The notes under the pieces were generated by a model. It was not told where the DNA came from. It worked only from the letters and a program-made list of their open reading frames with translations, and did not search any database. From Prorocentrum cordatum (lineage: Eukaryota): 64,000 nt of DNA. Numbering within the stretch: position 1 is the first letter of the stretch; the number at the start of each line of letters is the position of its first letter. Made by a program: the position numbers and the translations under genes. The DNA is taken from NCBI GenBank assembly GCA_963575745.1, contig CAUYUJ010000292.1, positions 1-64,000 on the forward strand, given 5' to 3'. Positions 1-64,000 of this stretch are shown in pieces.

Positions 1-90
1 CTCCTCCTCCTCCTCCTCCTTCTCCTCCTCCTCCTCCTCCTCCTCCTCCTCCTCCTCCTCCTCCTCCTCCTCCTCCTCCTCCTCCTCCTC
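1..90. repeat. (CCT)n microsatellite, 5' flank of the non-LTR element
   Basis: Near-perfect CCT repeats up to position 90. Confidence 0.97.
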
Positions 91-91
91 C

Positions 92-126
92 GCTCAAGCA
101 ACTTGGGCTCAGAACTCCATTTTGGC
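92..126 (+). other. Stack of relic dinoflagellate spliced-leader sequences
   Basis: GCTCAAG (92-98, SL 3' end), then CAACTTGGGCTCAG (99-112, about 11/15 to the truncated relic CCATTTTGGCTCAAG), then exact CCATTTTGGC (117-126). Confidence 0.65.
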
Positions 127-228
127 AGCCCTGAGTCCAGCACTGCACCTCAGCGTGGTGCTTGAGTGGCCCGTGCCCGCAGCCCAGTTGCGGCCAGCGC
201 GCACGGTGGCTAAGCAGCGCGAACAGCA

Positions 229-1393
229 ATGTCGAATCCCGCCACAAGGTTGTACACACGGTGCCGATCTTGCGGCAAGAACGAGTGGAATGACATCTTG
301 GAGCGTTATGATAAGAAGTGTACCAGGTGTTCGAAGCCGGTCAGGCTCTACACCCCTCGCTCGAAGTCGCCGAAGCGTGTTTCCTTCGCCAATGACAAGG
401 ACAACTACCTAGCGACAGATCACCAAGGGAAGTTGAAGTCTGCCCTGAAGCCCCAGGTGAAAGGCCCCTTGAGCGCCGAGACCCTCTTGGCCGAGGCGAT
501 CAAGGCGACCACAGATCCTGCCATCAGGTCGTCTCTCCAGTCGGAGCTGAACAAGTTGGAGAGCCAGAGGCAGGTCGAAGCAGATGCACAGATTTCAGCA
601 GCAGAGGAGGTGCGCAAGGCCGATGCGGCCTGGCGCGATGCAGATATGAAACATAGCCAAGCCGTCAACTCCGTCATGCGGATCCGCAAGCAGCTCGAGT
701 TGGCGGAGGGCAAGGAGAAGACAGCCGCAGTCACCCTGGCCACCGCCACGGCGGCCAAGCAGGCAGCGGCGAAGAGGCTGGCCCAGTCCGAGGGCGTCGT
801 GGAGGGCAACTCGCAGTCGAAGCCCGACGACGACGGCCACATCTTCAACCTCTCGTGGGATGAGTCAATCTTCCAGGATGCGGCTGGCGAGTTTGAAGAG
901 AGTGAACGTGCCATCATGGAGCAGCTTGAAAAGGAGCTCAAAGCCGCCAAGGAGAACTTGGGGGCTCGCGAGAAGGAGATCCAGGGCTGGCTCGATAGAG
1001 CCAAGGAGGTGCGCAAGCAGGTGCAGGAGCGCATGGGCAAGAAACGCAGGGTCGACGGTGCCACGGCCGAGCAGGCGAAGCCCGACGACCAGGCCGCCGC
1101 TGGCGGCAACTCGGCAGAGGCTCCGCCGCCTACAGCCGAGGCGGCGCCGCCTGCAGGCTCGGGCGACGGCCGCTCCTCTGCCACGGCGGCCGAGGCCTCG
1201 CCGACGGCGGGGGGGCGCGGCGGCAGCTGAGGCCCGTGCAGCGGCTGCGCAGGCGGAGGCGGAGGAGATCTCGCAGGCCAAGTTCGCTGCCGCGACGGCT
1301 GCTGCTGCGGCGAAGGCTGCGGCCACCGCCAATGGCAAGGGTCAGTCCACTGACGCCGCCAAGTCGAGCGGCAAGGGTTTCGCGACCATGTGA
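229..1393 (+). CDS. Retrotransposon ORF1: N-terminal CxxC-x15-CxxC putative zinc finger, coiled coil, Ala-rich tail; one apparent frameshift near 1210
   Basis: RCRSCGKNEWND...KCTRCSKPVRL is conserved in copy A2 (TCKACGTHEWND...KCRKCSRQVRL); reading continues in the 860..1393 frame (AEEISQAKFAAA) after a G-run. Confidence 0.75.
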
Positions 1394-1543
1394 CGCAGAT
1401 CGCCGTCTCGCTCGGCTCCTGCAGGACGGTCGAGCGGGACAACGGCGAGCAGTCCCAGTCCTTGCACGGTTTCTAGCTCGTGTCCCTCGACGGGTGGACC
1501 ATCACTGGACAGCATCAGTACGGGTCCGCGAGGCAGCACGAGC

Positions 1544-4500
1544 ATGCAGTCGTCCCTCTCCTCTCCCTCTTCGTCGGTTTCTCCATCGTCGGGTGAATCG
1601 TCAGTGGACTTGGCTCCTACTACTGATTCGGATGGTGCAGCTGTAACGTCTTTGCTCTTTGGGAATGTCACATGCATGAGTAACAAGATTTGGAAGTATC
1701 TACTCAGCCAGAAGGAGGCGCATTCACTCTTTGCAGTTGCGGAGACGCATGTTTCTCGGAAGGGTCTTCGTAAATGGGATAAGCTTGCACGAGGTGAGGG
1801 ACTTCGATTGCATGCCAACCCCGCTCGCGAGGATCATCAGTTTCGCACCGTTGCTGCTAGTCAGGAGGCTCGTGCCAATGAAAGTGGAGAGTGGATCGTC
1901 AGTCGAGGCCATTTGCAGGTACGCAGTTTTGAGACTCTGTGCAGCACACAAGTCATTCGAGCTGGAGAAGGACGAGTTCTGGACGGGATGATGCCCGTCG
2001 TCGTCCACATGGCCGGTTACACTTTCGTCTTAGTTTGTTTTTACGGCATCAACTCGATGGGCTTCACAGGGCCCAACCTACTACGCTACCAGCGCCTAGG
2101 CGCATTTCTGCATGCTCTTCAATTGCCGTGGGTGGTTGTGGGGGACTTCAATGCCCCAGCAGCTGCAGTCACCAAGTCAGAATTTGCAGCCCGAGTTGGA
2201 GGGCACGTGCTGACTCCTGATGTTCAATACACGTGCGATTCGGGAGCGAATGGCAGCATGATCGACTTCGTTATGTGCAGCACGTCGGCGCTCTCGTACG
2301 TGAAGGCAGTCAAGCCAGTCTTCTCGGCCCCCTGGAAGACCCACATCGGCATCGAGGTGCAGATCAGGCAGGCAGGGGCACAGCTGCTCTCACGCTCGCT
2401 AGTCCTGGCACCGAAATTACCTCAGATGGCTCGTCCTGGCACAGAACCGACAATCGGGTCTAAGGCCAGCCAAGCTCGTGCACGGCGAAACATTGTTCGC
2501 CAGGAAGCGGCAGCGAAGCGTGAGGAAAAGTACGATCGACTTTTCAGTGATTGTCTTGCCGCTCTCAACCCTGCCTCCAGGTCCTCCCCTAGTAGTGACG
2601 CGACCGATGTCGGTGAAGCGATCGAGGTTGAATCATTCTGTTCTGAGGAAGATCCGCGGGCTGATGAGTTTAATTTCACCTCGACGCGTGATGAGGTTAC
2701 CACTGAATTCCCTGGCGTTTCAGGATCTGGCTCGAGTACGGATGGTCAGACGAACACGTCGGCTCCTGGGGGCGGTCTCGGGGCCTCGTCGGTGCTCGTG
2801 GGGACCCCCCCGTGTTCGTCGGACCCTGTTACTGAGCCTACGGTCCTTAATTCGACCCAGTCCTCTCGCCCACATAGCAGTGTTGAAGTGGTTTCTTATA
2901 ACATTCCTGCCGAATTGTGGGAGGCCCAGAGAGCCTCGGTAGGTTTCCAGAGTTTCTCCTCTCTCTCCCTCCCTCCTTACATCCAGCAGTCGGCCGTCTA
3001 CCAGGTCGACCCTGAAGGATGTTGTCTGGTTAATGGAATAAATTCTTCTTGGGTAAAGATTTTAGAGGCCACTATCCTAGCGCATCATCGGGAAGGACAG
3101 CCTCATGGCGTGTCCCGTGCTGACGTTCCTCGGTTCGTAGTCCATGAGGCGCAGGTGAATCATAAGTATCGGGCGGCTCCGTTACGGGATGCGGTCTCTA
3201 ACTGGTGGGCTAGATTGCATACTGTACTAGTGGGGATTCATAAGCATCGCAGTCGTGGTAACGGGCTGTCCCAACAACGGCAACTGGAGAAAGCGCGTGT
3301 AGGCCTAGTTGAAGATCGCCCAGAGCAGGTCCATTGCAATATTCGCGATGGTCTGGAGGCTGGGTGGTCTGAATGGTTGAAGCTGCTTCCTGCCGTTTCG
3401 GAGGCGTCCCTCGACACGTTGCTACGTTTCTCTACCTGGGCTGATAGGATTGCCAAGCGCAGTCAGAGGCGAGCGACGGCAGCGTCGCTCAAGGAGTTCC
3501 GCGAGTGGGCATCGTCGTCGGAAGCTCTGGTTACCCTGCACAGGGCTACTCGGCAGGACCCTCTTCCTCCTCTCGAGTTCCTCGATGGCGACGGTCACCT
3601 GGTATTTCACCCGGAGGACATCATAGATTTTAAATCCAGGAAATGGCGCAAGGCTTGGGCCCCAGAGGTTACCGATCCCGAGGCGGCCTTAGCGTCGGTG
3701 TTGGGTATTGTGCGAGATGCAGTTCGTGATATTCCTGATCCCCTACCTCCCCTGGGTGTCAGTGATCTACGGCGTGCTCTGCGTGGCATGAAGAGTAAGA
3801 CGGGCCTAGGCGTGGATCGGGTGTCCCCTGGGGATCTTGAGCGTCTCCCTGATGTGGGTCTCGGTGCTCTTGCTGATCTCCTCAACTGCGCGGAGTCCCT
3901 GCTCGTCTGGCCTGCCCAAACGTTAGTGGTTATTGGCAAGCTCCTGCCCAAAAAGGCCTCAGGGGATAGAATTATTGGGCTCATATCTACGCTCGGAAGG
4001 GTGCGGAGCAAAGCACGCGAGCCTTGGGTCCAGCAATTGACGGCGGATACGGAGCCTTCTTGGGATGCTGCCGTCAAAGGCAACTCGTCGTTGCAAGAAG
4101 CATTTAGGAGGCCCCTTGATGAAGAGGTGTCAGCGATATTGGACATCCCATACGGCCACAGCTTGACGGACATTGAATCATATTACGACACGATGTTCTG
4201 GCTCAAACTCGTTCGTGCTGCAGTGCGCTTGGAATTCCCACCTACAGTACTTTACCTTGAGCTGGTTCAATGTGCATGCCCACGCACTCTGAATCAATTG
4301 TCCGCTTTTCGGTGCCGTTCGAGGTCACACGTTCTATAATCCAGGGCCTCCGCTCTGGGGCGCGCTTCGCGCGCATTATGACATTCTTCGTGATGGATAA
4401 AATGTGCAAGGCGAACATCCGTTGCAGCCGCAGGCTATGGATCGATGATCTATCCCAAGCGACGAGAGGTTCACGACGGCAAGTACGAATCAATTTGGTG

Positions 4501-6726
4501 AAATGCATAACGGATACCGCCGAGGGCTTCCACGGTCAAGGGCTCAAGATAGCTTCTAAATCAGTGGTGGTCTGCTGCCATTATTCAGATGCAATTGATG
4601 TAGTCAAGGCCCTCCGTAGGAAGGGCATCCACATGACAGCGGCGCGCAGTTGTGTTTACCTTGGTGCTGATCTCGGCGCAGGACGGCGGCACACGCGGGA
4701 GCAGAGAGTGAAGCGCGTTGTCAAGCACGTGGCCCGTCACAAGCAGGTCCGCAGGTGCACCGTCGCAATGCGCAAGGTCAAGATATCTTCACGTCTGGAG
4801 AAGCAGGGAGGGCAAGCCGTAGGCAGTTACGGTTACCAGCTGCACGGGGCGTTCGGCCAGTATCTTCTTCAACATCGGCGGAGGCTCGGTGCTTCCTGTC
4901 AGGTTGTTGACAAGTTACAAGGCGTACCAGCAACTCAGCGTTCACGGCATGTACGTGGACCGCTGTCTGCGATTATCACGTATATGTTATCCTTTGGTTG
5001 GGTGCCGCGCGGTCCTACTGATTGGGTCCTACCTGCATCGGATCATGACTGGCGCTTCCCAGCCGACGGATTTTCAGGTGTGAAAGCATTGGACAACTTT
5101 GACGATTTTCTGACTGATGTGCGTGCAGCTGCTATGTCACCCCATTGGTCACAGGCGGCTCAGCACTCCGACGGAGAGGGCATTCAAGATGGTATCGATA
5201 CATGGTCTCTGAGACGTCTTTTGGAACAATTGGGCACTATTCAAGTTGGAGGTGCGAGGCTCGCAGGTCTTCTACTCTCCATTGCTGTCGGTGGCGCATG
5301 GCCTCGGAGTCGCAAGGGAACCCTTTCCGAGCATCGTGGCAAGAGTGAGTCGGAGCTGCAGGCTTTCATGACATGTCTTCGTTGCAAGAGTGATGTGGAG
5401 ACTTCGTTTCACCGGTCCTGGGCTTGCAGTTGTAACAAGGATTCGCCGATCTACGAAGCCAGTGACACGTTGTATTCTTCTGCGCAATCCCAACACGAGG
5501 CGTCTGCATGTTTCTGGCTCAGAGGCCTGGTCCCAGCACCTTGGACGCGAACCCCAGACCCGCAGTTGGTTGATGAGTGGCAGTACAGTGGGATTGTCGA
5601 TGTCGAGCCTGGCTGCCTCCCTCGAGGCACGGCAGAACGTCCTACAATTATTTTCGGAAATGCAAGTGGAGGCCCTGAAACGGCAGATCCACGTTTGCGC
5701 AGGGTGGCCATGGGTGTGGTTGTGATGTCAAGCTATGATCCTCCAGTTGTGGGCGCTCACATCGTCGGGGGTCTGCCAGGCTTGAAGCAGTCTGTGGCCA
5801 GAGGAGAGTTGAGATCTTTGTGGCTCGCCATATGGGCCAGTGCAGGCCCCATTCATTATATCACAGATTGTGAGAATGTATCCAAGGGTTGGGCTGAATG
5901 CAAGTACTCAGATCCTCGGGGTGCTGGTGCAGATTTGTGGGCCCAAATTCAGATTCTGATGAGAACACGTGATGTGAATGATGTTTCCGTGGAGTTCGTC
6001 AACTCACACTTGTCTGGGAGTGATATCGTTGATGGACGGGCTGAGCGATGGAAGGTGCTGGGCAATTCTACCATAGATGAACTGGTTGGCGATATGGCGG
6101 CCGAAGCTCGACTGGCCCCTGCAATTCGTCATCGTGTGCTGGACATCGAGCGACAGGCCTTCCTGGTGAGGCACAGGCTCCTGCGCGCTGCCGCAGACTC
6201 CATGGCCAGCGAGCTTCAGGACTTGGAGAGGAGGAAGGAAGGCGGGTCTCCTCCTCCTCCTCCCCCTCCTCCTGCTGTAGCTCCCGTGCCTGTTCCGAGT
6301 GCGGTCTCTTTTTTCTCGACCTGTCACGTGTTGGACGACAGTGGTCGTAAGTGCAAGCGCTGTATGGGCTCGGCCTCTTTGGGGCGCCTGGAGGTCTGGA
6401 AAAGCAACTCTTGTTTCAAGCCCCTCAACCTGAATGGGGATTTCCACACGGTCCCTGACGGACATAGGTTGCACGTGGCTGGAGACTGGGTGCACGATAC
6501 ACATGCCATGAATCTTAGCACGAAGTTGGGTCTTTGGTTTTGCGGGAGGTGTGGGTTCTTCGCCAGTCAGCAGAACCGTAACCTCCGCAAAGAATGTTCC
6601 CGAGCCACACCGACTGGAGAGGGTTATTTGAAGTGGATCCGCCAAGGTCAGTGGACCAAAGTGCTAAGTAGAGCCGAGAAGGCTAGACGGTCTGATCTCA
6701 GGCGTGGTCTCCCTCCCTCGGTCTAG
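1544..6726 (+). pseudogene. Retrotransposon ORF2 (APE/EEP endonuclease, reverse transcriptase, RNase H, C-terminal Cys/His motifs), frameshifted near 4305
   Basis: EN: FGNV, AVAETH, VVGDFN, IDFV, WKTH; RT: GVDRV, LPKK..GDRII, DIESYYD, IIQG, WIDD, YLGADL; RNase H: FGNASGG, RGEL, YITDC, VNSH, GNSTID; C-terminal H..CxxC..C twice. Confidence 0.92.
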
Positions 6727-6770
6727 GCTCCATGTTCCTCACTTCGTGAACAGACATTCTCATTATCATT

Positions 6771-9067
<2,297 letters not shown>

Positions 9068-20160: not shown

Positions 20161-20421
20161 TCCACCGTCGGGAAATTTCTGCTTCGGCGGGCCCTCGCAA
20201 CAATATTACGCGGAGGGGCCGAAGCGGACAATCGTAGTGGAAGCGATCGGGAATCGGGACGGCACAAGACACGCCCGCAGTAGATTCAGTGGTCACCCTT
20301 ATGAAGCAATACAAGAGCAGACCTTTACACTGAATGCGGTGGGCGGCACGACCGGATTTCAATATGCCACATTCCCTCTGGCAAGCGTTTTACGCCACGC
20401 ATATGTGTATATACATATCTC

Positions 20422-21150
20422 ATACCAGAGAAAAGCCATCAAAGATTTTTAGAGCTATAGGGCTATGGGGCTATTGGGCTATAGGACGATAGGGCTATGG
20501 TGCTATAGGGCCATGGAACTAGAAGGCTATAGGGCTATAGGGCCATAGGGCTATATAGGGCTGTAGGGCTATGGGGCTCTGGGGCTCTGGGCCTCTGGGG
20601 CTATGGGGCTATAGGGCCATAGGGGATGAGTCTATATGGCTATGGGGCTATAGGGCTACAGGACGATAGGGCTATAGGGCTATCGGAATATGGGACTGTA
20701 GGGCTACAGGGCTATAGACATATAGAACTATAGGGCTAAAGGGCAATAAGGCTATCAGGCTAAAGGGCTACAAGGCGACAAGGCTATCAGGCTATAAGGT
20801 TATAAGGCTATAGGGTTATAGGGTTATAGGGCCATCAGGCTATAGGGCTATGATAAAATAGAGGGCTACCAGGCTGTAGGGCTATATGGCTATAGGGCTA
20901 TAAAACTATAGGGCTCTAAGACTCTAGGGCGATAGGGCTATCAGGCTGTAAGGATGTAGGGCTATGGGGCTATCGGGCTATAGGGCTATAAGGCCATCGG
21001 GCTATTGGGCTATAGGGCCAGAAAGGCTATAGGGCACCCGGGCACCACAGCACCTGGGCACCCGGGCGGGCCGCGGAAATCGGTGACACACCTCACTTAA
21101 TCATGTGAATCCGCTAGGACCCCTATAGAGAGAAGCTCTGGTCAGGGTAT
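20422..21150 (+). mobile_element. (GGGCTATA)n-array element, copy a
   Basis: Conserved head ATACCRGAGAAAAGCC..., degenerate 8-mer array, conserved tail ...GAATCCGCTAGGACCCC...AAGCTCTG. Confidence 0.75.
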
Positions 21151-40597: not shown

Positions 40598-43018
40598 CCT
40601 CCTCCTCCTCCTCCTGTTCCTCCTCCTCCTTCTTTTCCTCCCTCCATCCTCCTCCTCCTCATCATTATCCTCCTATTGTTCCTCCTCCTCCTCCTGTTCC
40701 TCCTCCTCCTCCTCCTCCTCCTCCTCCTCCTCCTCCTCCGCCTCCTCCTCCTCCTCTTGCTCCCTCTCTGCCTCATCTCAAGCAAGACCGGCGCGAGTGT
40801 TTCAATGTGTTACGGACTCGTACCGAGGCCTCTCACTGCCGAGTAGTGCTTGAAAGGCAACGAGCCATCAGCCGGACCCTTTTCCGTCCAGGTTGGCGCT
40901 CTCCTCGCTGGCAAAGAGAGGATCATGGCGGCCACCGTTCGAGCGTGGTCCACCTGCAAGGCGTGCGGCACACATGAGTGGAACGACGCCCTGCAGGCCA
41001 ACGGGTGCAAGTGCAGGAAGTGCTCGCGGCAGGTGCGCCTGTTCAAGAGCAAGAGCAAGAATGACCAGGGTTCGTCCTCGACTCGAGACACCGTGGACTC
41101 GAGTCAGGTGCAGCCTACCGTCGAAGGCCCGCTCTCGCAGGCGGCGGCCATCACCAAGGACCCCACGCTGAAGCAAGTGATGGTGTCCCACTCGCGCGCG
41201 CTCGAGAAGTGTACGCAGGGCTCTCCCAGCGCGCTACCCGCGGGCGAAGCAGTGCGGCGAGCGGAGGGCGCCTGGAGGCAGGCTCCCCCCAGCACGAGCA
41301 GGTAGCAGCCCAGCCAGCCACAGCAGGACGGTGCAGGAGGAGGCCCAGCAGCCAACGGCAGCAGTGGCAGTGGCGAAGGGCCTCCTCTCATCGGCCTGAG
41401 TATGGGGTGCTTCGAGGAGGAGCAGAAGCCCGTGAAGCAGTTCGAGGCGGATCTGCAGCAGGCCAAGGACAACTTCGCGTCCGAGGCCGAGGAGATCCGC
41501 CAGTGGAAGACCTCGGCTGCCGACCTCAAGAAGAAGCTGCTGGAGCGCTTGCAGAAGAAGAGGAAGACCGAGGCCGCGGACTGCTCCACGGCGGCGGCGG
41601 CGGGCGGTGGCGGTGGCGGCCCAGCGCAGCCCTCGTCGGCGCCTTCGCCCGCGGCCCCCGCAGGTGCGCCAGCGGCTCCGTCCACCGAGGAGATCGAGCA
41701 GGAGGGCCAGAAGATCCGCATGGCCAAGGCTGCGGGCGAGCGAGCGGCAGCGGCGGCAGTGGCGGCAGCGGCGGCCGCGGGGCCTGGGCAGGCACCTTCG
41801 CCCGCCGCGGCCGCGGCGGCCGCCGCCTCGGAGACCCCCGCCCCAGCCAGCCTGGCCGCAGGGTCGCAGGACGCCGAGGGCGGCGCCGACCAGCTCGCGG
41901 AGACGCAGGAGGACGAGAGCAGTGGCAGTGGGGACTGCTCCACGTTCTTCGCGAACGCCGCCGCGCTCGGGAAGACGTCGCGGGCCCACCTCGGGAGCGG
42001 CGGGGTGCAGGAGAAGTGCCAGTACATGGGCGTCGTGGAGTCTCACGCGCTGGGGGGCGGGACCATTCGCAGCGAATGGGCTCGCAAGGCGCAGGCCACC
42101 AAGTGGCGCCACCTCGACAACGGCGCGCGCGGCTCGGGCAGGGGGAAGTCCGAGGCGGCGCGCGAGAGAGTCACGGAGGGCGGTGAGATCTTCCTGACCC
42201 GCAACTACAGGCATGTGCAGCGCTTCACGGTGAAGGCTCGCGACCTCCCCGCCTGCTGCGCTGCGGGATGCGACGCCTGCGACGGCTTCATGCCCGTCAT
42301 CGCCCACCAGATGGGCTACTCGTGCGTGGTCATCATCATGCACGGTCTGCCCAGCGTCGGTTTCACGATGGGCAATCTTTCTCGTTTCGGCGAGGTCGGC
42401 GGCATCGCCGGGAAATCGGCAGCGCGGCGAGCCCACATCTGGATTACAGTCGGGCTGCTGAAAGAAGGAACGATGAACACGGAATGAAGCCCGTTTTGGG
42501 CCCCACAAGCGCCTGCGTGCACGAGGAAGGCCAGAGGAAAAGCCATAAGGACCTGAGGAATACCGAGCTCCTTTCTTACCCAAACTGTTCCTTATTTCAA
42601 CGAACTGGCTGTATACCATCACAGGGTCGGCCTGCATTACATATACTCGGAGCGCTGAGGCTGTCAAGCCTGTCCCACGGCATCCACACTGCGGGCTGAA
42701 GATCCGTCTCAGAGACGAAGGGCAGCAGCTTTTGATGCGCAAGCTCGTCGCCGCACCCAGGCCCCCTCGCATCGAGCGGCCTCGCCAGGGCCCGACAGCG
42801 TGCTCCAAATCCAGCCAGGCTCGCGTCACTCGACTTCAGTGCGAGACCGCTCGCGAAAAGAACTGAGCCCTGCGCGACGAATCATTTTCCGATCTCTCGC
42901 AGCGCTCGCCCGAGGCGGGCCCGAGGGGTGAATCCAACAGCGGCAATGAGAAGGCCCCAGGGCCCGTCGCGCCCCCCCCGCCCCGAACGATGCGTTCTGC
43001 GAGGAATTCGATCATGTT

Positions 43019-43177
43019 TTAAGTAGGGCGTGTCCCCCTACAGGCGAATTTTCAACGAAAAAGAATAAAGACTCAAAAAATACTCCAGAGGGGTCAAAAA
43101 AGGCTCCAAAAAAAGTCCCCAGACTATTCTTTCCTGCTTTTGAATACTCCCCCCGTAGAGGGACAGGCCCGACTTAA
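43019..43177. mobile_element. TTAAGTCGGG MITE nested in A2
   Basis: TIR; decayed 8-bp TSD ATCATGTT/ATCCTGTC. Confidence 0.82.
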
Positions 43178-43399
43178 ATCCTGTCTGTTTTGAGGCCGAC
43201 GAGGAAGAGGCGGACCCCATGGGCCCACGGGCCCCGTGGCAGGCCCGCCGTGATCGGGCGGCTCCGGGGGTCCTCTCGGGTCTCCGACTCCGGCCGCGGG
43301 GCGTGGGGGCCAGGGGCCCGCCGGGTCTCCCGCTCGCGCCAGCAGCGCCCAGACTTCCGGCGTCAGTCTCGCGTCGGACGAATCGACCCGTGCATCTGC

Positions 43400-43980
43400 A
43401 CGAGCGAAAATATGTGCGGAAAGAATGGGTATGATACCGGAGCAAAAAACCCATCATAATCTTTTAAGGGCTGTAGGGCTATAGGGCTATATGGGCTGTA
43501 GGGCTATTGGGCTGTAGGGTAACAGAGCTACAGGGCTATAGGGCTATAGGGCTATAAGATATAGGGGTATGCGGCTATAGAGCTATAGGGCTATACGGCT
43601 ATAGGGCTATAGGGCTATTGAGATAAAGGGCTATAGAGCTATAGAGCTGAGGGTCTATAGGGCTATAGGGCTATAGGGCTATAGGGCTATAGGGCTATAG
43701 GGCTATAGGGCTATAGGGCTATCGGCGGCGAAAATCGATGGCAAACCTAACCTAACCATATGAATCCGCTAGGACCCCTACAGAGGCAAGCTCTGATTGG
43801 GGAACAATGCCCAACAGCAGTGCCTGTTCGTTTTGAACAGGACTCGCTGTCCGCGCCGCCGCGGCCTGTGTCCGTGTGAGACAGCAGGTAGCCTGCCCAA
43901 CAGCGGCCGCTGTTGGTTTGGGACAACCTTTGTTGTCGGGCAATGTACCCAATTTTTCCGTACCCGTTTCGGGCATCCAA
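43400..43980. mobile_element. MITE-like element (ATGCCCAACA family) interrupted by a (GGGCTATA)n element
   Basis: Reverse-oriented homologue of ~53733-53918 and ~55985-56150. Confidence 0.65.
43434..43800 (+). mobile_element. (GGGCTATA)n-array element, copy c
   Basis: Same head and tail as copies a and b; splits a host repeat. Confidence 0.8.
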
Positions 43981-44623
43981 GAGTATACCTGAGGGGGAGA
44001 GCGGGGCCCAACCCGGCGATCGTCCCGCCGGCAGAGCTGGCTCCACTTCCCTTGCCGACGCCGCCGCCGCTCCTCCTTTCCCCATCTGATCCGCCACTTG
44101 GCCCGCCGCCTCGGCCCAAGACCTCTGGCCCACCCTTTCGCCCGCCTCCGCGCTGCCCGCCGCGCCCCAGCCCCTGGCTTGCCAAGTCGGGCAGGGGCAC
44201 GTTTTGCACATCAGCAACAGGCACGCGTCGTGGGTCAGAGCAGTCGAAAGAGCCACCTCGCCTCATCACGTTATCGACAGCCCACGTCGGTCGCGAGCGG
44301 ACGGCGACTCGTGATCGCGCCAGCGCATCAGGGCGCGCGAGCAGACACTACGCGATCAGGTAGCGAGTTGGCGGTCCAGTGCTCATTCAGTCACGCAGAA
44401 AATACTCCGTCATCGTTGCAGGAAGAACGGGCCAGCTCAGACTCGACATTTGCGCTGCGCGCAGCAGCGGAGAAGATCGGCAACGGTGTGGGTTGAGCCA
44501 GTCAAGCCCTGCAGCTTCGGTCAGCGGCAGGAGTTGCGCGGCGACCTCTCGCGGCTCGACAGCGCCGGCGTCGAGCGCATCAATCATCTGGAGGCGTGGA
44601 CTTTCAGAGGCACCAGGTTTGAG

Positions 44624-44847
44624 CAGGGACCGACCGTCCCGGCATTCCTATAGTCCTACCACGAAGAGTTCTTAGAACCCAAAAACGTTCTAATAACAAA
44701 AACCATGTTCTTAGAACATAAGCCCGATGTGATAAAGCAAGACAGCCCCAGCCAGAAGTGCTCTAAGAACAGTTCGTGGAAAGCACAGAAAGATTCTTAG
44801 AACATTCTCTGGCAGGGCTATAGGCGAGCCAGGACGCTTCGCCACTG
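44624..44847. mobile_element. CAG...CTG MITE
   Basis: Full-length homologue of 11892-12113. Confidence 0.75.
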
Positions 44848-46214
44848 AATGACAGGTGCGCCGAGGCCAGAGCCGCATCGTCGTCGCTTCGGTCTTTCCA
44901 GGACTGGATCTCGCCCATGCCCGCCGCGGCGGCGATCCACAAGAGCCTGAAGGGCCCCCAGCCCGTCAGCGACGAGCTGCATTCCGAGCCTCATTGCACC
45001 GTGCATCCGCTTGACATAATCGACACGAAAGTCGAGAAATACCAGACCTCGTGGAGCTCAGTGTCTTTGACATACGCAGCATTGGATGATTTGTGTTCGC
45101 TCATTCACAAGCATGCCAGAGTCGAGCCGCTGGATCCGATCACGGCCTCAGAGTTGCGACGTGCGCTGTCTCGGATGAAGAGCAAGGCGGGCTTGAGCAT
45201 CGATCAGCTCCCACCGCTCGACGCAGAGAGGTTACCCGACATCGCTCTCGAGAGCGCATGCCAGCTGCATGCTACATCCCCAGGCCTAAAGTTTGTTTCC
45301 TCTTACATGGGAACGCATGGATCCATTTGGATACAATTACGTGTGTGCGATAGTCACGTGGATCCAATTTCCGTGTCTTCTGGATCCAATGTTTTGGCGT
45401 GGAAGTTTCGTGGATCCAATTCTTCTGCTGGAATAAAATTGTAGCAAATAATAAAAAGGGACCCAAGGGGAAGTGGATCCGCGGAGCCTTGCACCTGCAG
45501 CCCAAGCCATGATTCTACGGGGGAGGGGTTTCCCTACCGAGAGACACAACACACGGGGACGAGTAGGGAAACACAAACCAGGGCCTGGCCAACCCCCGCA
45601 GCCTCACATAACATATGCCGCACCCCACCTCGACGCGAGCGCGATATGATCGCTGCGTCCGCATCCACTAAAGCCAACGACACTTCGCATTTGTCATGTG
45701 GGCCTCAAGAGGAAAATCTCTCGGCCTGCTCAAGTGTGATGGAGGATGGCCACCCAGGGCCCCGGCAGGTCTCGGCCTCTGCGGGCCGCCTGCTGGCGAA
45801 GAAGGGGGGAGGGGACAGGGTCACAGGACAGCCGGCGACGCTGCGCAGGATCTGGGCCCATGCGCAGGGAGCCCCCCACGAGGCAGTGGCCAGCGGAGCA
45901 CGAGCCCACGTGGCACGCGGCGATGGCCAACAACAGCGCGATGAGGGAGGCCTTCCTTCGCGCGCTCACTGATGAGGTGGCATCCGAGATGGACATGCCT
46001 CACGGCCGTTCGCTCGTGGGCATTCAGCCCTTCTGCGGCAGTATCGAGTTTGGTCCTTTTAGCCCGAGGGGCTATCAAGCTTGGCCATCCGCCTGCGCTG
46101 CTTGATCTGCATTTGCAACTATTATCCAAATAGCCTTGCCCTATAGGAGTCCTAGCTCAAACCCTACTTATTGGTCCGTTGCCCCCCCCCTAATTCCTAT
46201 GTCCCCAACCCAAT

Positions 46215-46495
46215 TTCCTATGGTTATGCCTATGCCTATGCCTATGCCTATGCCTATGCCTATGCCTATGCCTATGCCTATGCCTATGCCTATGCCTATG
46301 CCTCCCCCTAACTCCTGTACCTACGCCTATGCCTATGCCAGCCTGCTTGCGTGCTTGCTTGCTTGCTTGCTTGCTTGCTGCCGCGCTCGCACGTTTGCTT
46401 GCTTGCTCGCGTGCTTGATTGCTCGCTTGGTTGCTTGCTTGCATGCTTGCCTGCGTGCTTGCTTGCGCTTGCTTGCACGCTTGCTTGCTTGCTGA
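46215..46495. repeat. (CCTATG)n and (GCTT)n microsatellites inside the A2 RT region
   Basis: Read directly. Confidence 0.9.
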
Positions 46496-49024
46496 GTTGC
46501 GGACTCCAAGCATGCTTGATTTCTCTGATTCCTCGAGTTGAGTCGTCTAATATATTTGTTGTCAACGCTGGCTGATATGTTTGGGCCCCAGGACCATTGC
46601 TCAGTTGGATTCGTTCTCTGATTGTTTCAGACTGCACGGTCAGTGGTCCGAGGACTACGCGATGGCACTCGGTACGCCAGGTGCATGCCCCATTGGGTTG
46701 GCCAGCGCTTGCGCATTGCCCATCCGACCATGCCCGAGAGGCTCTGGAGTGACGACCGTTCGCAGCGAGCGTGTGGATCACGCTCTCACGTTCGGGCCAC
46801 CCTCATCATAGGAAGAACCCTGACGGCCGAGCTCCTCAGAGACCAGCAGTTGAGCCTCCCCCCAAAGAGCGCCCCCACCTGCTCACATCCTGAGGATGCT
46901 CGTGCAGCTGCTCGCGCGTTGAGGAGACGGCCCATCATGATCCCCCCCACCCTTCAGGCCAGCTACCTCGGCTTGGACCTGGGAGTTGGACGACGACATG
47001 CACGTGAGACGGCGAGGAAGCTCGTCGCCAAGGGCGGGACCCAAGCTGCCAAGCTTAGGGGCTTCGCTGGAGCGGCTTGTCGCTTCCACGCTACGGCCAA
47101 GTTTCAAAGAGCTGGGCCCCAAGCAATCTCCACCGACGGGCGCTAGGTCTACGACGCCCACGGCAGCCACATGGTCGCGCAGCGCAGGAGGCTCGCCACA
47201 GCGGCTGGAGCTATGCGCCGCGGCCGCTGCACCACGACGCCGCTTGCCATCCGCGTGACAGACGGAGACCCAGGCTTGGCGTTGCCCCGTTAGTGCCTGC
47301 AGAAATGGTTCAGCGTGTGGCTCGGAGCCCAGGATTAGGCCAAGTGTTCAGCGCGTGAGTTGTCTTGCGGAGGCCAGCCGAGCTTGACATGTTCGCGGAC
47401 CTGTCTTTGCTGATATTACTTATTTGTCGTCTGCGAGGCGGAACTCCATCACTGCCACATAATGGAACACGTCGAATGACATCGCCGAGGACAGGTCTTG
47501 CTGGAAGCAAGGTAATGATCAGTTCTTTGCCTTGGACCAGGCGACCCCACTTATGGATAAGTTGGAGAGATTCCTCAGCAGACGGCAACTGAGGAAAGCA
47601 GCGGAGCATCTTTGCGGCAGCGGGCTCGGGGAGGGTGCAGACCTTCTCAGCCTTCGCAAGTGTATTCCTGAGTTACAGTTCGTTCGCAAAGGCCGTCAAC
47701 TTGCTGAGCTGATGGCATCTATCGCCTCGGGCGTCGCGTGGACCAACCTTCGGAAGCGGGAAGCAGGGCTGCGTGAGTCGGCCGGGTGCGAGCGCTGCGG
47801 ACATCAGATCGAGTCAGCTTTCCATCGCGTCTGGCCATGTCAGGACAACGAGGGTTCTCCCGAGCCTCCACGGAGTCCCAGGACTGCTCCCCTGAGGCTG
47901 CCGCGGAGCAGGAGGCGCACGCTTGTTTCTCGATGCGGGGCTTGACCATCGCCGACTGGACACGCGCGACGGAGCCGCCAGACATCGAGCCGTGGGTCAC
48001 GGGCAACATCGACGGGCGCCTGGCGCCCGGCTGCCCGGGCGAGGGCTCGGCGGGCTCGGAGGACACCCCGCGGCTGGTGTTCGGCGACGCCTCGGGAGGT
48101 GCGGACACCATGGACGTGCGTCTGAGGCGCGTCGGGGAGGCCGCGACAGTCATCACCGACTTCGGGCCCGTGCAGACGGGGCCCTACGTGCTGGGGTCGC
48201 CTGCAGGGAGGAGCCAATCGGTTCCTCGAGGCGAGGTCGCGGCCCTCGAGGTCACGATCCGCCGGTCGCGAGGCTGGGTCATCTACGTGACGAGCTGAGA
48301 GGAGGTGTGCAGAGGATGGTGGGAGGGTTTGGCCATGTCACCAGCTGGACCCCACGCCGACCTGTGGCGCGCCATGGTCGACGAGCTCGCGAGGGCTGCG
48401 GCCAGCCGCGCCAGAGCGCCAGCCGAGGACCGACAGCATGTGAAGCTCGCCGAGATCAAGGCCAGCCGTGTGAGGAGGAGGCTCTTGCGTGTCGCTCCCG
48501 AGGTGCTTCAGACTGAGCGTCTCAGCACTGCACGCGCTCGAGCGAGTCAGCAGCACGGGGGTGATGCGCCTGCCCCTCCACCGCCTCCTCCCCCTCCTCC
48601 TGTCGAGCGGCGTCCGCCGCCCGCCCCGGCGATAGCTGCTCAGCACGTCCTGACCGAGGACGGTCGAGCCTGTAGCGGTTGCTTCTCGCCGGGCTCCATG
48701 CCCGAGCTTTGCGCCTGGCTACATGAGTCCGTGTGCGCGCGCCGCTCGAGGCTGTTGATGGGCGTCCGCTCAGATTGCCTGCATGACGGCGTTTGCACAC
48801 CGCTGGAGGTTGGGCCCACCCCTCACAGAAGTTGTTAGTTCATGGTGTGCTTCGTATGTGGTTCTGCAAATCGTGCGGCGCTTTCGGCCGAGACCAACTC
48901 AGGGGTCTAGCGAAGGCGTGCTGCACCGAATACACAACGAAGTCACGCCGCGAGCATTTAGACAGAATGTCTCGCGTCTTGCATCCCAAAGCCTCGTGTG
49001 ATAGCGGAATATCCTGGAATACCC

Positions 49025-60693: not shown

Positions 60694-61261
60694 TAAGCCC
60701 AAGCTGCGTCAGCGGTGTTGCGAATGCGTCAGACGTGTAAGACGAATGCGCGCGGTGCTACGGCAAGAGCCCCATGTCGTTAAAGAGGAACCGCCCTACA
60801 TCATTGAGACTGCTGCCACGGCTTGAGGCGGCTGCGCGCGGAGCCACAAAGGGAGCACGCTGTGGAAAAGGAACCGCCCTCCATCCTGGCAGTTGCTGCA
60901 GACGATGAAGATGAATGTACGCGGCACTGAGGCGAGGGCCCCAATTTGAACACGAGCAGCCCTCCATCCGTACAACTGTGGACAGATGGCAAGACGAATG
61001 TGCGCGGCGCTCAGGCCAGGAGGTCCATGCTTGTAAACGCTGCGAATGTTAAGCGTCGGGATGTCTCAGGTGAAACGCCCAGTCCGCCCTACCGAAACTT
61101 ACGAGGGTGCCACAGGAAAAGGCCAGATAATGAGAAGGCATGGAAGAGGAGGAGGAGGAGGAGGAGGAGGAGGAGGAGGAGGAGGAGGAGGAGGAGGTAG
61201 AGGAAGAGGAAGAGGAGGCGGATGCGGAGGCGGAGGCGGCGGAGGAGGCGGGGGAGAGGGT

Positions 61262-64000
61262 TTTGCTGCAAGAACGATGCCTGGCGGTCCCCGCCCCAGC
61301 TCGCCACATGTGAGACGGATGGGCGGGCACTCCACCTCGGGGTGCCATCCCGCCCCTTCCAGATCAGTCCATGAGGCGCCCCCAGAACGCTGCGCACTCC
61401 TCCTGTACCAGGGAGCGCGGCTCTGCCTCCAGGGAGACCTTCACTGCGTAAGGATTTTTGCCTCGGCGCAGGAGCGAGAGGCGGTACTCTGCGGTGGGGT
61501 TCGCAGGGGCCCCCACGCAGGCAGCCAAGAGCTTGCACCCCCTCTCGCTCGAGAACACACCGCACCGATCGCAGAATGTATACTGGCCCACGCGGTGCAA
61601 TTCGTGCCCCAAGGCCGCACCGCGGAGGGCGGGAGAGATGACGCCTTCCCCATCCCCCCGCCCCAACCCAACACCCCACCGACGATCCACCCTCATCTTG
61701 CCCTGGCAGGGCCTGCGCGCCAACGCGCGCCTGGTCTTGCTAGAGAAGGCCTTTCGCCCGCACGTCGAGCAACGCCACGCCCCCCTCCTCCAGAGGAGGA
61801 CGTGGGCGCGGGCCCCCTCGGGCGGCCCTTGCCGCCGTCGGCGGGCTCCGCTGGAGCCCGCGGCAGGCCTCCCCGTGGAATCCCCGAAGTCCGCCGTAAG
61901 CCCCGTCACCCCCGCCACCAGAGTCAACACCGCCTGGACCTCCGCAGAGCGGGTGGTCCAGGTCTGAGCCTTCCACGGGGGGACCTCCTGCATGTCGGCC
62001 CCAAGGCGGGCCTCACAGTCTGCCAACTGATTTCCTTGAAAATCGAGGAAGCTCTCGTGCGAGTCATCCTTTGGCCCGCTAGCATGGGTTTTTACCTTGA
62101 CGGCCTGGAAATCACCTTCCTGACTGAAGCTGTCCTGGATCTGGGCCCAGATTCTGCCCCAGAGGTCGGCGCGTGGCCTCCTAGGGCTGCAGCACCAGCT
62201 GGGACCTCTACGGAGGCCTCGAATGACTGAACTGTTGTCTATCCCTACCCTCAGAGGCGGGTGAGCGCTATTCAGCAGCTTGAGCAGTCCATACAGCTCA
62301 GCACGCAGGACGGAGGCTAGGCTACGCAGCCCTGGGAGGGCCCCCCGCATGGCCTTAACAGCCCCCCCGTCCTGGTCCAGGAATACGTAGCCCCAACCGA
62401 AACTCTTGAGCCCTGGTGGGCCTCTGGCCGATCCGTCGGAGTAGGCCCACCCTGAGACCAGCGGGGGATTGACAAAATCGGGGTTCTCCTCCTCCAGGGC
62501 AGAAATCCAATCAGACTGCGGGTCCTCCAGGGGGCGCTCGTGAAGCCCACGAAAGAAAAGGAGGGAGTCCGAGGTGGAGGATTCAGCACGATGCACGATC
62601 CCTTGGAGGCCCTCATCCTCGGCTACGGTGGCTCTCGCTGCTCCTCTATCGGGGCAACAAAGGAAACGATGGTGCTGGCATCCGACTTCAGCGCCGCAGG
62701 CTTGACAGGACCTGTCGTCCCCGAAACCCGCACGCCAGACCTTGTCCTGGGTCCAGAAGTCGCGGCCCATGTAGGCCAGGATAGCCGATCGCCTCTGCGG
62801 CGATCGGTTAGCCTTCCGTCGAAGGAGAGCCCTAATAGGCTCAAGGAAGGGACGGGTGATCCCGAGGTCCCTGGAAGCCGCCCAGGAGGTCATCACCGCA
62901 AATTCCAAACGGGACCAGATCAGCTTCTTAAGACACTGCGGTGCTGTCCTGCGCAACGCCCACTGCTGCCCGAGATGGTCGGAGAAAACATGATAGGCAG
63001 GCCACGTCCACGAGAGGAGTCTGAGTGTGGCCCAGACGGCTGAAGCGGGCCCTTTTATCTGCCTCCAGGGGTTGCTCCCAGGCTTGGCGGCAGCGGCCGC
63101 CGCGACAGCTCTGCGCCACCCCGCAGCCATGATCTCCTCATGGCTGCCAGCAAAGATAGCCTCCGCCCATTTGAGCAGTGGCTTCGTGCAGGCATCGACC
63201 AGGGGGTCGCAGCGCAGCGTCCACAGGCGGAGCAGTCGGTCCTTACCGATTGCGTTCCCGCCCAGCGCCGAGGCCATGAGCGCCCTTGCTCGGGTGAGCC
63301 GAGTCGGGTCCATTCCGAGGCAGACCGCCCCATACAGCACAGAAGGGGGAAATCCCATGCGCGCGACTTGAAAGGTGCGCGCGCCCTGCTTGCCTAGACT
63401 CGATAACTTACTTCTACGCCGCCTAGCGCTCCCCATTCTGGCATCGCCTCTGGCGCGCAGCGACACAACTCCTCCTCCCGCCGAGTCGGCTCCGAGCTGC
63501 GTGCTGCTGGTCTGGACCTCCAGTCCAAGGCTGCGGGCCCACCCTTTGATGCGGGCTCTCAAGGAGCGCTGCGCTGTCAGGATGAACCCCTTGCCCGTTG
63601 GCTTGTCTGGTCGGACCTGGAGACTGGGATCCCACGGGCCCCCATCACTTCTATATACTGAGTTGTGGCCGCATGCATCGAGGCCGAGACATCCGCCTCC
63701 GCACCTCGGGCCTGAATGCTTAAATCATCGACAAAAAGCTTCATCGGCAAGGCGGGGTACTCCTGCGCCAGCCCGTCTACGACTGACAAGATGGCTAGCT
63801 TGAGGCATCTCGTGCCCCCGCTGCTACCCGCAATGACTGCTGAGAATGTGGTGACCGAATGCACCGACACCACGCCGCGGAAAGAAACAAAGCGCCTGGC
63901 CGTGTATATCGAGATTAGAAGCTTCAAAAGTTACAACCGAAACTGGTGCTTGGGCGCCTCGGCCCAAAGCAAGTACATTGTGACATGCTCGAACGCCTTC
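61262..64000 (-). mobile_element. 3' part of a divergent RT + RNase H non-LTR retrotransposon (A3), continuing beyond the window
   Basis: KAFEHV, AVIAGS, LFVDDL; RNase H YSDGS, RAEL, GIDN, KTH, GNQLAD; two H..CxxC..C motifs; (CCT)n on its sense strand ~100 nt after the stop. Confidence 0.92.
61364..64000 (-). pseudogene. A3 ORF2 (RT, RNase H, zinc-finger-like tail) with a stop near 63932 and a frameshift near 63590
   Basis: ORFs 63577..63927 and 61364..63562 join into one collinear RT-RNase H polypeptide. Confidence 0.88.

What the first reader, a model, noticed from the sequence alone, without database searches (positions are those of the whole stretch)
92..228. LINE whose 5' end is a stack of spliced-leader relics
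Seen: the element starts right after (CCT)n with GCTCAAG, then a decayed CCATTTTGGCTCAAG-like 14-mer, then exact CCATTTTGGC; copy A2 also starts CTCAAGCAA (40777) after a (CCT)n tract. Established: dinoflagellate mRNAs receive the 22-nt DinoSL by trans-splicing, and recycled mRNAs accumulate truncated SL relics in tandem. Inference: this retrotransposon may rely on SL trans-splicing to release and cap its RNA from read-through transcripts, gaining a relic per cycle. That differs from CRE/SLACS/NeSL elements, which insert into SL RNA genes.
Basis: partly seen in the sequence, partly recalled or inferred. Interest (0 to 1): 0.8.

Follow-up and report, generated by a model that had tools for sequence, protein, structure and literature searches.

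The report
Dinoflagellate LINE capped by spliced-leader relics
A jumping gene (LINE) in a dinoflagellate genome begins with leftovers of the short leader that the cell splices onto its messenger RNAs, which shows that the element was copied from a leader-bearing RNA and suggests that it borrows the host's splicing to make its own RNA start.

Summary
Window 92-128 reads GCTCAAG | CAACTTGGGCTCAGA | ACT | CCATTTTGGC-AG. That is the last 7 nt of the DinoSL, then an in-phase decayed relic (10/15), then a second relic with 10 exact bases. It is the best match to an SL+relic+relic model among 8526 windows on both strands (score 32). None of 120,000 random 60-mers reached 30.

It lies between a 91-nt (CCT)n tract and ORF1 of a non-LTR retrotransposon (ORF1; ORF2 = APE endonuclease, RT, RNase H; one frameshift). 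Two host genes in the window carry DinoSL relics too, and one matches a Prorocentrum cordatum protein at 94%.

The element was copied from trans-spliced RNA. A relic gained per cycle is contradicted: only the terminal 7 nt are intact, the inner relics are old in a young copy, and a second contig carries the same decayed relic.

My reading: the first AG after the (CCT)n tract, inside CTCAAG, is the acceptor, so each cycle rebuilds the same 5' end. No RNA data could be reached, so splicing today and dependence on it are untested. New variant of a known kind; interest moderate.

The parts
1..91 (+). (CCT)n pyrimidine tract upstream of the element, cut by the window start. Proposed target microsatellite or tail of an older copy, and polypyrimidine tract of the trans-splice acceptor.
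   Evidence: 91 nt, CCT fraction 0.92, no AG inside.
92..98 (+). Terminal SL piece GCTCAAG (DinoSL nt 16-22). Its AG at 97-98 is the first AG after the tract.
   Evidence: AG positions start at 97.
99..113 (+). Decayed relic unit CAACTTGGGCTCAGA, 10 of 15 identical to CCATTTTGGCTCAAG and in phase with the terminal piece.
   Evidence: The same unit with 2 differences is in a contig of run X2 (loose end before 118).
114..128 (+). ACT spacer, then the second relic unit CCATTTTGGC (exact 10-mer, 117-126), then AG (TCA missing).
129..228 (+). Rest of the 5' UTR.
   Evidence: Three contigs of run X1 match up to 170 and then differ.
229..1230 (+). ORF1, 333 aa: N-terminal CxxC...EWND...CxxC zinc-ribbon-like motif, then a coiled-coil-like, low-complexity part.
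   Evidence: 38% identity to ORF1 of A2. No Pfam family.
1544..4339 (+). ORF2, first part: APE-type endonuclease and the N-terminal half of the reverse transcriptase.
   Evidence: Pfam Exo_endo_phos E=1.9e-5, 24.9 bits against a cut-off of 24.5. Collinear tblastn to the full-length relatives P0006 and P0021.
4270..6726 (+). ORF2, second part in another frame (frameshift between about 4294 and 4324): RT motifs B-E (WIDD), RNase H, C-terminal Cys/His motifs.
   Evidence: phmmer finds 1305 relatives, which carry RVT_1 and RNase_H.
6727..6790 (+). Short 3' UTR and the first (CTC/CCT) run. The family's 3' tail is CCT-type. Whether the AT-rich stretch 6790-7445 and the long (CCT)n 7445-7977 belong to the element is open.
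40777..48921 (+). Copy A2, a diverged and broken relative (28-41% aa identity). CTCAAG at 40777-40782 after about 180 nt of pyrimidine tract, ORF1 ATG at 40925, CCT-rich tail from about 49040.
61142..63568 (-). Third family member, with its 5' part beyond the window end: RT/RNase H part 63568-61445, stop at 61366-61364, (CCT)n tail 61262-61142.

Best explanation
Window 92 to about 6790 is a nearly intact non-LTR retrotransposon of a dinoflagellate (ORF1; ORF2 = APE endonuclease, RT, RNase H; CCT-type 3' tail).

SL origin of the 5' end. The first 37 nt derive from the dinoflagellate spliced leader. This means the RNA that was reverse-transcribed into this copy, and its ancestors, had been SL trans-spliced. 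The two inner relic units are old and are now a fixed part of the family's 5' UTR. Only the terminal GCTCAAG is fresh.

Proposed cycle (inferred).
1. The element sits in or behind a (CCT)n tract, which is its own kind of tail and its likely target.
2. Transcription enters from upstream.
3. The trans-spliceosome uses the first AG after the pyrimidine tract, which is the AG of the retained CTCAAG. This releases an RNA that begins SL-CAACTTGGG..., the same RNA as the parent's.
4. Target-primed reverse transcription into another (CCT)n site copies the RNA up into the SL.
5. The 5' junction forms within ...GGCTCAAG, possibly through CTC microhomology with (CCT)n, leaving 6-7 nt of SL.

On this reading the 5' end renews itself without adding a relic per cycle.

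Shown: the anatomy, its statistical weight, the LINE identity, the (CCT)n tails, and inheritance of the inner relic. Inferred: the acceptor choice, read-through transcription, microhomology joining, and dependence on trans-splicing.
For: 1) SL match. Top score 32 of 8526 windows; 0 of 120,000 random 60-mers reached 30. The pieces end at the SL exon's 3' boundary, and the second unit is in phase with the first.
2) The genome uses the canonical DinoSL. Two host genes carry relics in their 5' UTRs: 17996-17975(-), 18 of 21 identical and 36 nt before an ATG; and 17034-17006(-). All 3 exact SL k-mers of at least 10 nt in the window lie no more than 110 nt upstream of a same-strand ATG. The neighbouring gene is 94% identical to a protein labelled Prorocentrum cordatum. 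Window GC is about 0.6, against 59.7% for that genome (PMC10666404).
3) LINE identity. Exo_endo_phos hit. 1305 relatives. Of 9 long relatives scanned, 9 have RNase_H, 6 have RVT_1 at E<=1e-3 and 2 have Exo_endo_phos. The alignment to them is collinear. ORF1-ORF2 order is shared with A2.
4) Fresh terminal piece against old inner relics. GCTCAAG is 7 of 7 identical while the next unit is 10 of 15, in a copy with ORF1 intact and one frameshift. A contig of run X2 has CTCC-CTCAAG-CAATGTGGGCTCAGAACTTT: the same decayed unit, with a junction that differs by one base.
5) A2 shares no nucleotide similarity with A, yet has CTCAAG at its tract boundary. CTCAAG follows 2 of 47 pyrimidine tracts, and both are LINE 5' ends.
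6) (CCT)n tails at 3 of 3 family members, and (CCT)n upstream of 2 of 2 visible 5' ends. Pyrimidine tracts number 33 on + and 14 on -.
7) No 5' ribozyme: Rfam at E<=1 gives nothing in 1-6189.
Against: No transcript evidence at all: no RNA run was listed and only contigs of runs guessed to be DNA could be laid.

No independent full-length 5' ends beyond A, A2 and one contig of run X2. That contig could be the same locus in another strain.

A2's CTCAAG is not significant on its own (score 14).

An AG soon after a pyrimidine tract is common (within 13 nt at 15 of 47 tracts), so acceptor-like context by itself proves little.

The 3'-most relic is better kept than the middle one, against the simple rule that the oldest relic is the most decayed.

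Host retrocopies here can keep the whole SL (17996-17975), so the constant truncation to 6-7 nt in the LINE needs the untested microhomology idea.

A different RT element at 35068-36555(-) shows no SL relic upstream (best score 17), though its 5' end is undefined.

Confidence: 0.7

Rival explanations
1. Relic stacking: every retrotransposition cycle uses the AG inside the previous SL (CCGTAG|CC) and adds one 15-nt relic, so the stack counts cycles.
For: This is the established model for dinoflagellate retrogenes (passages of PMC3229502 and PMC7245778). Two relic units do exist here, so it happened at least once or twice in the lineage's past.
Against: The unit next to the terminal piece is the most decayed (10/15), not the freshest. 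The copy is young. The X2 contig shares the same decayed unit. The terminal piece lacks the CCGTAG acceptor altogether. A family with many copies (37 and 14 contigs laid) would carry long stacks, but only two units are seen, and A2 has none.
Confidence: 0.1
2. One-step origin: the multi-unit leader was donated at once, either by trans-splicing from a tandem-SL gene or by RT template switching onto an SL-bearing RNA, and says nothing about repeated cycles or about the LINE's own RNA processing.
For: Tandem-SL genes with 2-3 units, and the suggestion that one trans-splicing event could give several units, are in PMC6616646 (passages and its supplementary table). LINE RTs are known to form chimeras with other RNAs (PMC13174262, search listing only).
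Against: It still requires an SL-bearing LINE RNA or a switch exactly at the element's 5' end. Different decay of the three pieces argues for different ages. There is no SL intron: the A. carterae SL gene continues GTACACATTGGG (PMC12584245), whereas here CAACTTGGG follows with no GT.
Confidence: 0.1
3. The SL relics belong to a host retrogene 5' UTR, with ORF1 as a host gene and an ORF2-only LINE landing behind it, or to an SL RNA gene into which the LINE inserted (CRE/SLACS/NeSL-like).
For: Host genes with relics are frequent (more than 20% of genes in Symbiodiniaceae, PMC5585692; two in this window). ORF1 has no Pfam family.
Against: ORF1 followed by ORF2 is found in the same order in A and A2 at 28-41% identity. 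The upstream flank is (CCT)n, not the 5' half of an SL exon. There is no SL intron. The endonuclease is APE-type, not the restriction-like type of SL-gene-specific LINEs (recalled).
Confidence: 0.05
4. Chance, or a conserved family motif: the 5' UTR merely resembles the SL, for example a promoter-like TTTTGG box or a stem (104-112 pairs with 131-139).
For: By my arithmetic, about 1.5 exact 10-mers of the SL are expected per window on both strands. Song et al. propose that TTT(T/G) of relics acts as a core promoter (PMC5585692 abstract). A local hairpin exists.
Against: The combined three-piece match was reached by 0 of 120,000 random sequences. It sits exactly at the element boundary. The fold is not unusual (z = -1.14; 21 of 200 shuffles fold as well).
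Confidence: 0.05

Closest known systems
DinoSL-relic retrocopies ('mRNA recycling'; Slamovits & Keeling 2008, not read here; described in PMC3229502, PMC7245778, PMC5585692 and PMC12014239, passages read)
   Same: SL-derived units in tandem at the 5' end of an intronless copy, upstream of the ORF and on the same strand. A truncated CTCAAG start followed by CCATTTTGGCTCAAG is reported as the dominant pattern in retrogene transcripts (PMC12014239).
   Different: Here the tagged unit is the autonomous retrotransposon itself, not a passenger host mRNA. The stack is stable rather than growing. The terminal piece abuts a (CCT)n tract. Published work noted only that the GO term 'RNA-dependent DNA replication' is enriched among relic-bearing genes and read it as expression (PMC5585692, PMC6050394).
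SL-gene-specific LINEs: CRE1/2, SLACS, CZAR (trypanosomatids) and NeSL-1 (nematode), from my own knowledge
   Same: A LINE physically associated with spliced-leader sequence.
   Different: Those insert into SL RNA genes with a restriction-enzyme-like endonuclease and are flanked by the two halves of the SL gene. This one has an APE endonuclease, (CCT)n flanks, exon-only 3' pieces and no intron.
LINEs that free their 5' end from co-transcripts with an HDV-like ribozyme: R2, and L1Tc with Pr77 (PMC3185411, PMC4035085, PMC1874656: abstracts in the search listing)
   Same: The same problem, a promoter-poor element transcribed with upstream host sequence that needs a defined 5' end. L1Tc lives in an organism with polycistronic transcription and SL trans-splicing.
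   Different: L1Tc transcripts are described as unspliced and use an internal promoter plus a ribozyme. Here no ribozyme family matches, and the 5' end carries SL sequence, so the proposed solution is the host trans-spliceosome.
LINEs with microsatellite tails or targets (R1-clade Waldo, Mino, Kibi, Koshi; Dong), from my own knowledge
   Same: A simple-repeat 3' tail, and insertion within the same repeat, so the element is flanked by it on both sides.
   Different: The repeat here is (CCT)n, a pure pyrimidine tract that could double as the splice-acceptor tract. Clade membership was not tested.
SymbioLINE elements of Symbiodinium (PMC5890265, passages read)
   Same: Dinoflagellate LINEs with an ORF1 plus an EN-RT ORF2.
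   Different: Those described carry a DNA methyltransferase in ORF1, and the passages I read do not mention an SL. ORF1 here is a zinc-ribbon and coiled-coil protein.

Membership tests
Non-LTR retrotransposon (APE-type LINE) | APE-like endonuclease N-terminal in ORF2 | tested here: met
   Pfam Exo_endo_phos E=1.9e-5, 24.9 bits against a cut-off of 24.5. tblastn to the EN parts of P0006 and P0021 at 1652-2419.
Non-LTR retrotransposon (APE-type LINE) | Reverse transcriptase domain | tested here: inconclusive
   RVT_1 is not detected in this copy even at E<=5, and there is no PDB sequence match. However, 6 of 9 long relatives have RVT_1 (3 at or above the curated cut-off) and align collinearly. 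RT motifs 1-7, including WIDD, were read by eye. The domain is split by a frameshift.
Non-LTR retrotransposon (APE-type LINE) | No LTRs, a 3' tail of simple sequence, and variable 5' truncation among copies | tested here: met
   No nucleotide repeat between the ends. A CCT-type tail at 3 of 3 members. Target-site duplications cannot be read inside a microsatellite.
DinoSL-relic-tagged retrocopy | SL-derived sequence at the 5' end, same strand, upstream of the ORF | tested here: met
DinoSL-relic-tagged retrocopy | Relic units start at CCA (SL cut after the AG at nt 6-7) and follow each other head to tail | tested here: met
   Unit 2 is in phase at 99-113. Unit 3 starts with CCA at 117, 3 nt out of phase.
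DinoSL-relic-tagged retrocopy | Conservation falls towards the 3' end (oldest relic last) | tested here: not met
   The middle unit is 10/15. The last unit is 10/10 exact plus AG, with a 3-nt gap.
DinoSL-relic-tagged retrocopy | Transcripts of the copy carry a new full SL in front of the relics | not testable with these tools
   No RNA run was listed. Only contigs of runs guessed to be DNA were laid.
SL-gene-specific LINEs (CRE/SLACS/CZAR/NeSL) | Insertion inside an SL RNA gene, flanked by SL exon and intron parts | tested here: not met
   Upstream is (CCT)n. No 5' half of the SL and no GT-intron follow.
SL-gene-specific LINEs (CRE/SLACS/CZAR/NeSL) | Restriction-enzyme-like endonuclease C-terminal to the RT | tested here: not met
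   An APE-type domain lies at the N-terminus. The C-terminal part matches RNase H in relatives. The defining feature itself is recalled.
Ribozyme-processed LINEs (R2, L1Tc, RTE-type) | HDV-like self-cleaving ribozyme at the 5' end | tested here: not met
   Rfam, all 4227 families, E<=1, on 1-7500: 3 weak hits, all at 6190-6304, and none at the 5' end. A divergent ribozyme could escape this scan.

The most novel reading that the evidence does not exclude
This LINE family has no promoter of its own and lives off two host features at once. It targets and ends in (CCT)n, so every new copy lands behind a ready-made polypyrimidine tract. It also keeps the last 6-7 nt of the spliced leader, whose AG is then the first acceptor after that tract. 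Read-through transcription plus SL trans-splicing would therefore cut out and cap exactly the same full-length RNA in every generation. That would be a self-renewing 5' end, the trans-splicing counterpart of the HDV-ribozyme trick of R2 and L1Tc, and it would also explain why dinoflagellate LINEs can drive mass retroposition of SL-bearing mRNAs.
Probability: 0.3. Interest if true: 0.75.

Novelty: new variant of a known kind. Interest (0 to 1): 0.55.

Why it matters
Dinoflagellates add one leader to their nuclear mRNAs, have few recognisable promoters, and hold thousands of retrocopied genes tagged with leader relics. The engine of that retroposition is still unnamed: LTR and non-LTR elements are both proposed (PMC6050394, PMC12014239).

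A near-intact LINE that carries the same tag shows two things. The retrotransposon's own RNA passes through the trans-splicing pathway, and its reverse transcriptase copies up into the leader. That makes this family a concrete candidate for the engine.

It also gives a testable answer to how a LINE gets a defined, capped 5' end in a genome transcribed in long read-through units.

The P. cordatum paper's supplementary note says LINEs there are little diverged (Kimura 0-10), so the family may be active and open to experiment.

If the idea fails, the finding is still a clean example of a known signature on a new kind of carrier.

Tried and rejected
Expression and other copies:
- No whole genome is held for the window.
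- No RNA holder was listed for 92-2600, so expression could not be examined.
- Read laying gave only contigs of runs guessed to be DNA. X3 laid 0 contigs and X4 laid 2.

Protein searches:
- ORF1 and ORF2 residues 560-931 found nothing in the word-indexed protein search.
- phmmer of ORF2a and ORF2b against PDB sequences gave only chance hits.
- RVT_1 was not found in this copy.

Searches for DNA of other copies:
- Metagenome scan with the ORF1 alignment: 184 pattern matches, none confirmed.
- Viral contigs with the RT alignment: 28 matches, none confirmed.
- Second metagenome scan with the RNase H alignment: 1 locus of 1728 nt, too short to reach a 5' end.

Other checks:
- Earlier findings of this scan: nothing by place, words or sequence.
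- Rfam: no family at the 5' end.
- RNA fold of 92-240: z = -1.14, not unusual.
- SL-intron origin of 99-113 was considered and set aside. There is no GT, and the GGCTCA core fits the exon better. I saw only the first 12 nt of one species' intron.
- The tails after A and A2 show only low-complexity likeness.

Literature: four searches and the passages read found no description of a LINE whose 5' end is DinoSL-derived. Table S23 of PMC10666404 and the bioRxiv supplements could not be seen and may bear on this.

Full report
WHAT IS THERE

The window opens with 91 nt of (CCT)n. It is followed by GCTCAAG (92-98), CAACTTGGGCTCAGA (99-113), ACT, CCATTTTGGC (117-126) and AG, then 100 nt of unique 5' UTR and an ATG at 229.

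The dinoflagellate spliced leader is DCCGTAGCCATTTTGGCTCAAG (PMC7245778, passages). A relic is the leader cut after its internal AG, that is CCATTTTGGCTCAAG (PMC3229502, passages). On that basis:
- the first piece is the last 7 nt of the leader;
- the second is a 15-mer directly in phase with it, 10 of 15 identical to a relic;
- the third holds 10 exact relic bases and then AG, as if TCA had been lost.

A search allowing 3 mismatches misses the middle unit.

IS IT MORE THAN CHANCE?

I aligned SL+relic+relic locally to every 60-nt window on both strands (8526 windows). The two overlapping windows at 76 and 91 rank first with score 32. The mean is 9.5 and the sd 2.3.

None of 120,000 random 60-mers drawn from a first-order model of the element reached 30, and 2 reached 28.

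The next best places, at 27 and 21, are informative. They are on the minus strand.
- 17996-17975 is 18 of 21 identical to the full leader and lies 36 nt before an ATG.
- 17034-17006 (GTAGCC...TTGGCTCAAG) lies about 50 nt before another ATG.

These are two tandem host genes, each with a relic. All three exact SL words of 10 nt or more in the window lie in such 5' UTRs.

The second of those genes is 94% identical, over 35% of its length, to a protein labelled Prorocentrum cordatum. The window's GC of about 0.6 fits that genome's 59.7% (PMC10666404). So the organism is a dinoflagellate that uses the canonical leader, and relics are a live feature of this stretch of genome.

THE ELEMENT

ORF1 (229-1230) has a CxxC...EWND...CxxC motif and a coiled-coil-like remainder. 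It has no Pfam family.

ORF2 is in two frames, 1544-4339 and 4270-6726. The first part has an Exo_endo_phos hit just above Pfam's cut-off.

RVT_1 is not detected in this copy. Even so:
- phmmer of the second part against 1.84 billion representatives gives 1305 relatives at E<=1e-3;
- of 9 long relatives scanned, 9 have RNase_H, 6 have RVT_1 and 2 have Exo_endo_phos;
- two of them align collinearly to 1652-6717, with the break at about 4294-4324.

This is a non-LTR retrotransposon of the form EN-RT-RNase H with a single frameshift.

A second copy, A2 (40777-48921, + strand), is 28-41% identical in protein and broken. It has no nucleotide likeness to A. A third member lies on the minus strand at 63568-61445 and runs off the window.

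All three end in a short 3' UTR followed by a CCT-type tract. Both visible 5' ends abut such a tract. Pyrimidine tracts of at least 40 nt number 33 on the + strand and 14 on the - strand. I infer that (CCT)n is the family's tail and its preferred landing site, as in other microsatellite-tailed LINEs (recalled).

OTHER COPIES

No genome is held. Four public runs were listed, none of them RNA. Their contigs (kind guessed as DNA) were laid on 80-1600 at 80% likeness:
- X1: 37 contigs; 7 at 99% or more, 3 at 95-99%, 13 at 90-95%, 14 below 90%;
- X2: 14 contigs (1/1/5/7 in the same classes);
- X3: 0 contigs;
- X4: 2 contigs.

So this is a multi-copy family of mixed ages.

One X2 contig continues leftwards from 118 as CTCC-CTCAAG-CAATGTGGGCTCAGAACTTT. 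It has the same decayed middle unit with two differences, and a boundary that differs by one base. Three X1 contigs match up to 170 and then differ.

Two metagenome scans and one viral scan gave no usable 5' end.

HOW IT MOST LIKELY WORKS

The SL pieces end at the exon's 3' boundary, and no intron follows. One species' SL gene continues GTACACATTGGG (PMC12584245). So the pieces came from trans-spliced RNA, not from an SL gene.

The copy is young, yet the unit next to the terminal piece is one-third diverged and is shared with another contig. The inner relics are therefore inherited 5' UTR, and a relic is not gained per cycle.

The terminal 7 nt are intact. If they were as old as the neighbouring unit, the chance of 7 of 7 surviving would be about 0.67^7 = 0.06 (my arithmetic).

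The junction between fresh and old sequence lies right after an AG. In the present copy the first AG downstream of the pyrimidine tract is that same AG, at 97-98. The same holds for A2 at 40781-40782.

I therefore propose a steady-state cycle:
1. read-through transcription enters from upstream;
2. the SL is added at the CTCAAG acceptor;
3. reverse transcription runs into the leader;
4. the 5' end joins within GGCTCAAG to a (CCT)n target, perhaps by CTC microhomology.

Only the anatomy is shown. The acceptor, the read-through and the joining are inferred.

POINTS AGAINST

- There are no transcripts.
- A2's CTCAAG is weak on its own (score 14).
- An AG within 13 nt of a tract is common (15 of 47 tracts).
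- The last relic is better kept than the middle one.
- Host retrocopies here can keep the whole leader.
- A different RT element at 35068-36555(-) (RVT_1, E=2.8e-18) has no relic upstream (best score 17).

COMPARISON WITH WHAT IS KNOWN

The signature itself is textbook for dinoflagellate retrogenes. Even the pattern 'CTCAAG then CCATTTTGGCTCAAG' is reported as dominant in retrogene transcripts (PMC12014239).

In P. cordatum transcripts, 2,793 carry one relic, 200 carry two and 1 carries three (supplementary note of PMC10666404).

What I did not find in print is a LINE whose own 5' end is leader-derived (four searches). The nearest published statements are:
- Song et al. noted that 'RNA-dependent DNA replication' genes are enriched among relic-bearing genes, and read it as high expression;

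The element is not of the CRE/SLACS/NeSL kind. It resembles R2 and L1Tc only in the problem it must solve, and no ribozyme family matches its 5' end.

VERDICT

This is a new variant of a known kind, of moderate interest. Interest would rise if SL-joined element transcripts and a genome-wide census bear out the self-renewing 5' end.

Noticed in passing
window 17996-17975 (-) and 17034-17006 (-): Two tandem minus-strand genes each carry a DinoSL relic in the 5' UTR. The first is a nearly full leader (18/21, with the internal AG mutated to AA), 36 nt before ATG 17938; its ORF runs to 17378 and encodes a 186-aa coiled-coil protein. The second is GTAGCC...TTGGCTCAAG before ATG 16956; its ORF runs to 14971, has no Pfam family, and is 94% identical to a P. 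cordatum-labelled protein. (GA)n at 17300-17100 lies between them.
   Followed up: partly
window 61142-63568 (-): A third member of the same LINE family (RT/RNase H part), with its 5' end beyond the window. Stop at 61366-61364, then about 100 nt, then a (CCT)n tail at 61262-61142.
   Followed up: partly
window 32745-37081 (-): A different RT-bearing element (RVT_1 E=2.8e-18 in ORF 35068-36555, continued in 34323-35201). It is not matched by this family's proteins. No SL relic was found in 36400-38000 (best score 17), and its 5' end was not defined.
   Followed up: partly
window 6790-7445 and 49770-50330 (+): After the short CCT run at the end of both A and A2 comes a 560-650-nt AT-rich stretch with three-base periodicity (triplets such as ATT, AGT, CGT, CTT; T-rich in one phase). 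A longer (CCT)n follows. The two stretches are alike only at low-complexity level (70-85% over 30-90 nt). It is unclear whether this is part of the element's 3' end.
   Followed up: partly
whole window: Strong strand bias of pyrimidine (mostly CCT) tracts of at least 40 nt: 33 tracts (4445 nt) on + against 14 (986 nt) on -. The two complete LINE copies are on the + strand.
   Followed up: partly
window 7978-8230 and 57512-57680 (+): Short GC-rich islands between (CCT)n tracts that both begin AAGGC..ACGAG right after the tract. They may be heavily 5'-truncated copies or another short element.
   Followed up: no
window 37290-37170 (-) and 36640-36550 (-): Two copies of a unit of about 100 nt (GGGGACGATTTTT...CCCTGTAG...GGACA.GCCCGAC), MITE-like, upstream of and inside the minus-strand RT element.
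   Followed up: no
proteins P0001, P0005, P0008, P0024, P0079, P0118 and others: The closest protein fragments to ORF2 (81-95% identical) all carry a EukProt label of a green alga (Pyramimonas sp. CCMP1952), whereas the neighbouring host gene matches Prorocentrum cordatum. This is a label conflict, possibly a mixed or mislabelled data set. I did not pursue it.
   Followed up: no
window 104-139 (+): The decayed relic's GGGCTCAG pairs with CTGAGTCC downstream and puts CCATTTTGGC in the loop of a 9-bp hairpin. The fold of the whole UTR is not unusual (z = -1.14), and there were too few copies to test covariation.
   Followed up: partly
window 20400-21900: A long satellite with an 8-nt period. On the minus strand it includes TAGCC-rich units (CCCTATAGCC...) that give spurious weak SL-like scores (21).
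   Followed up: no
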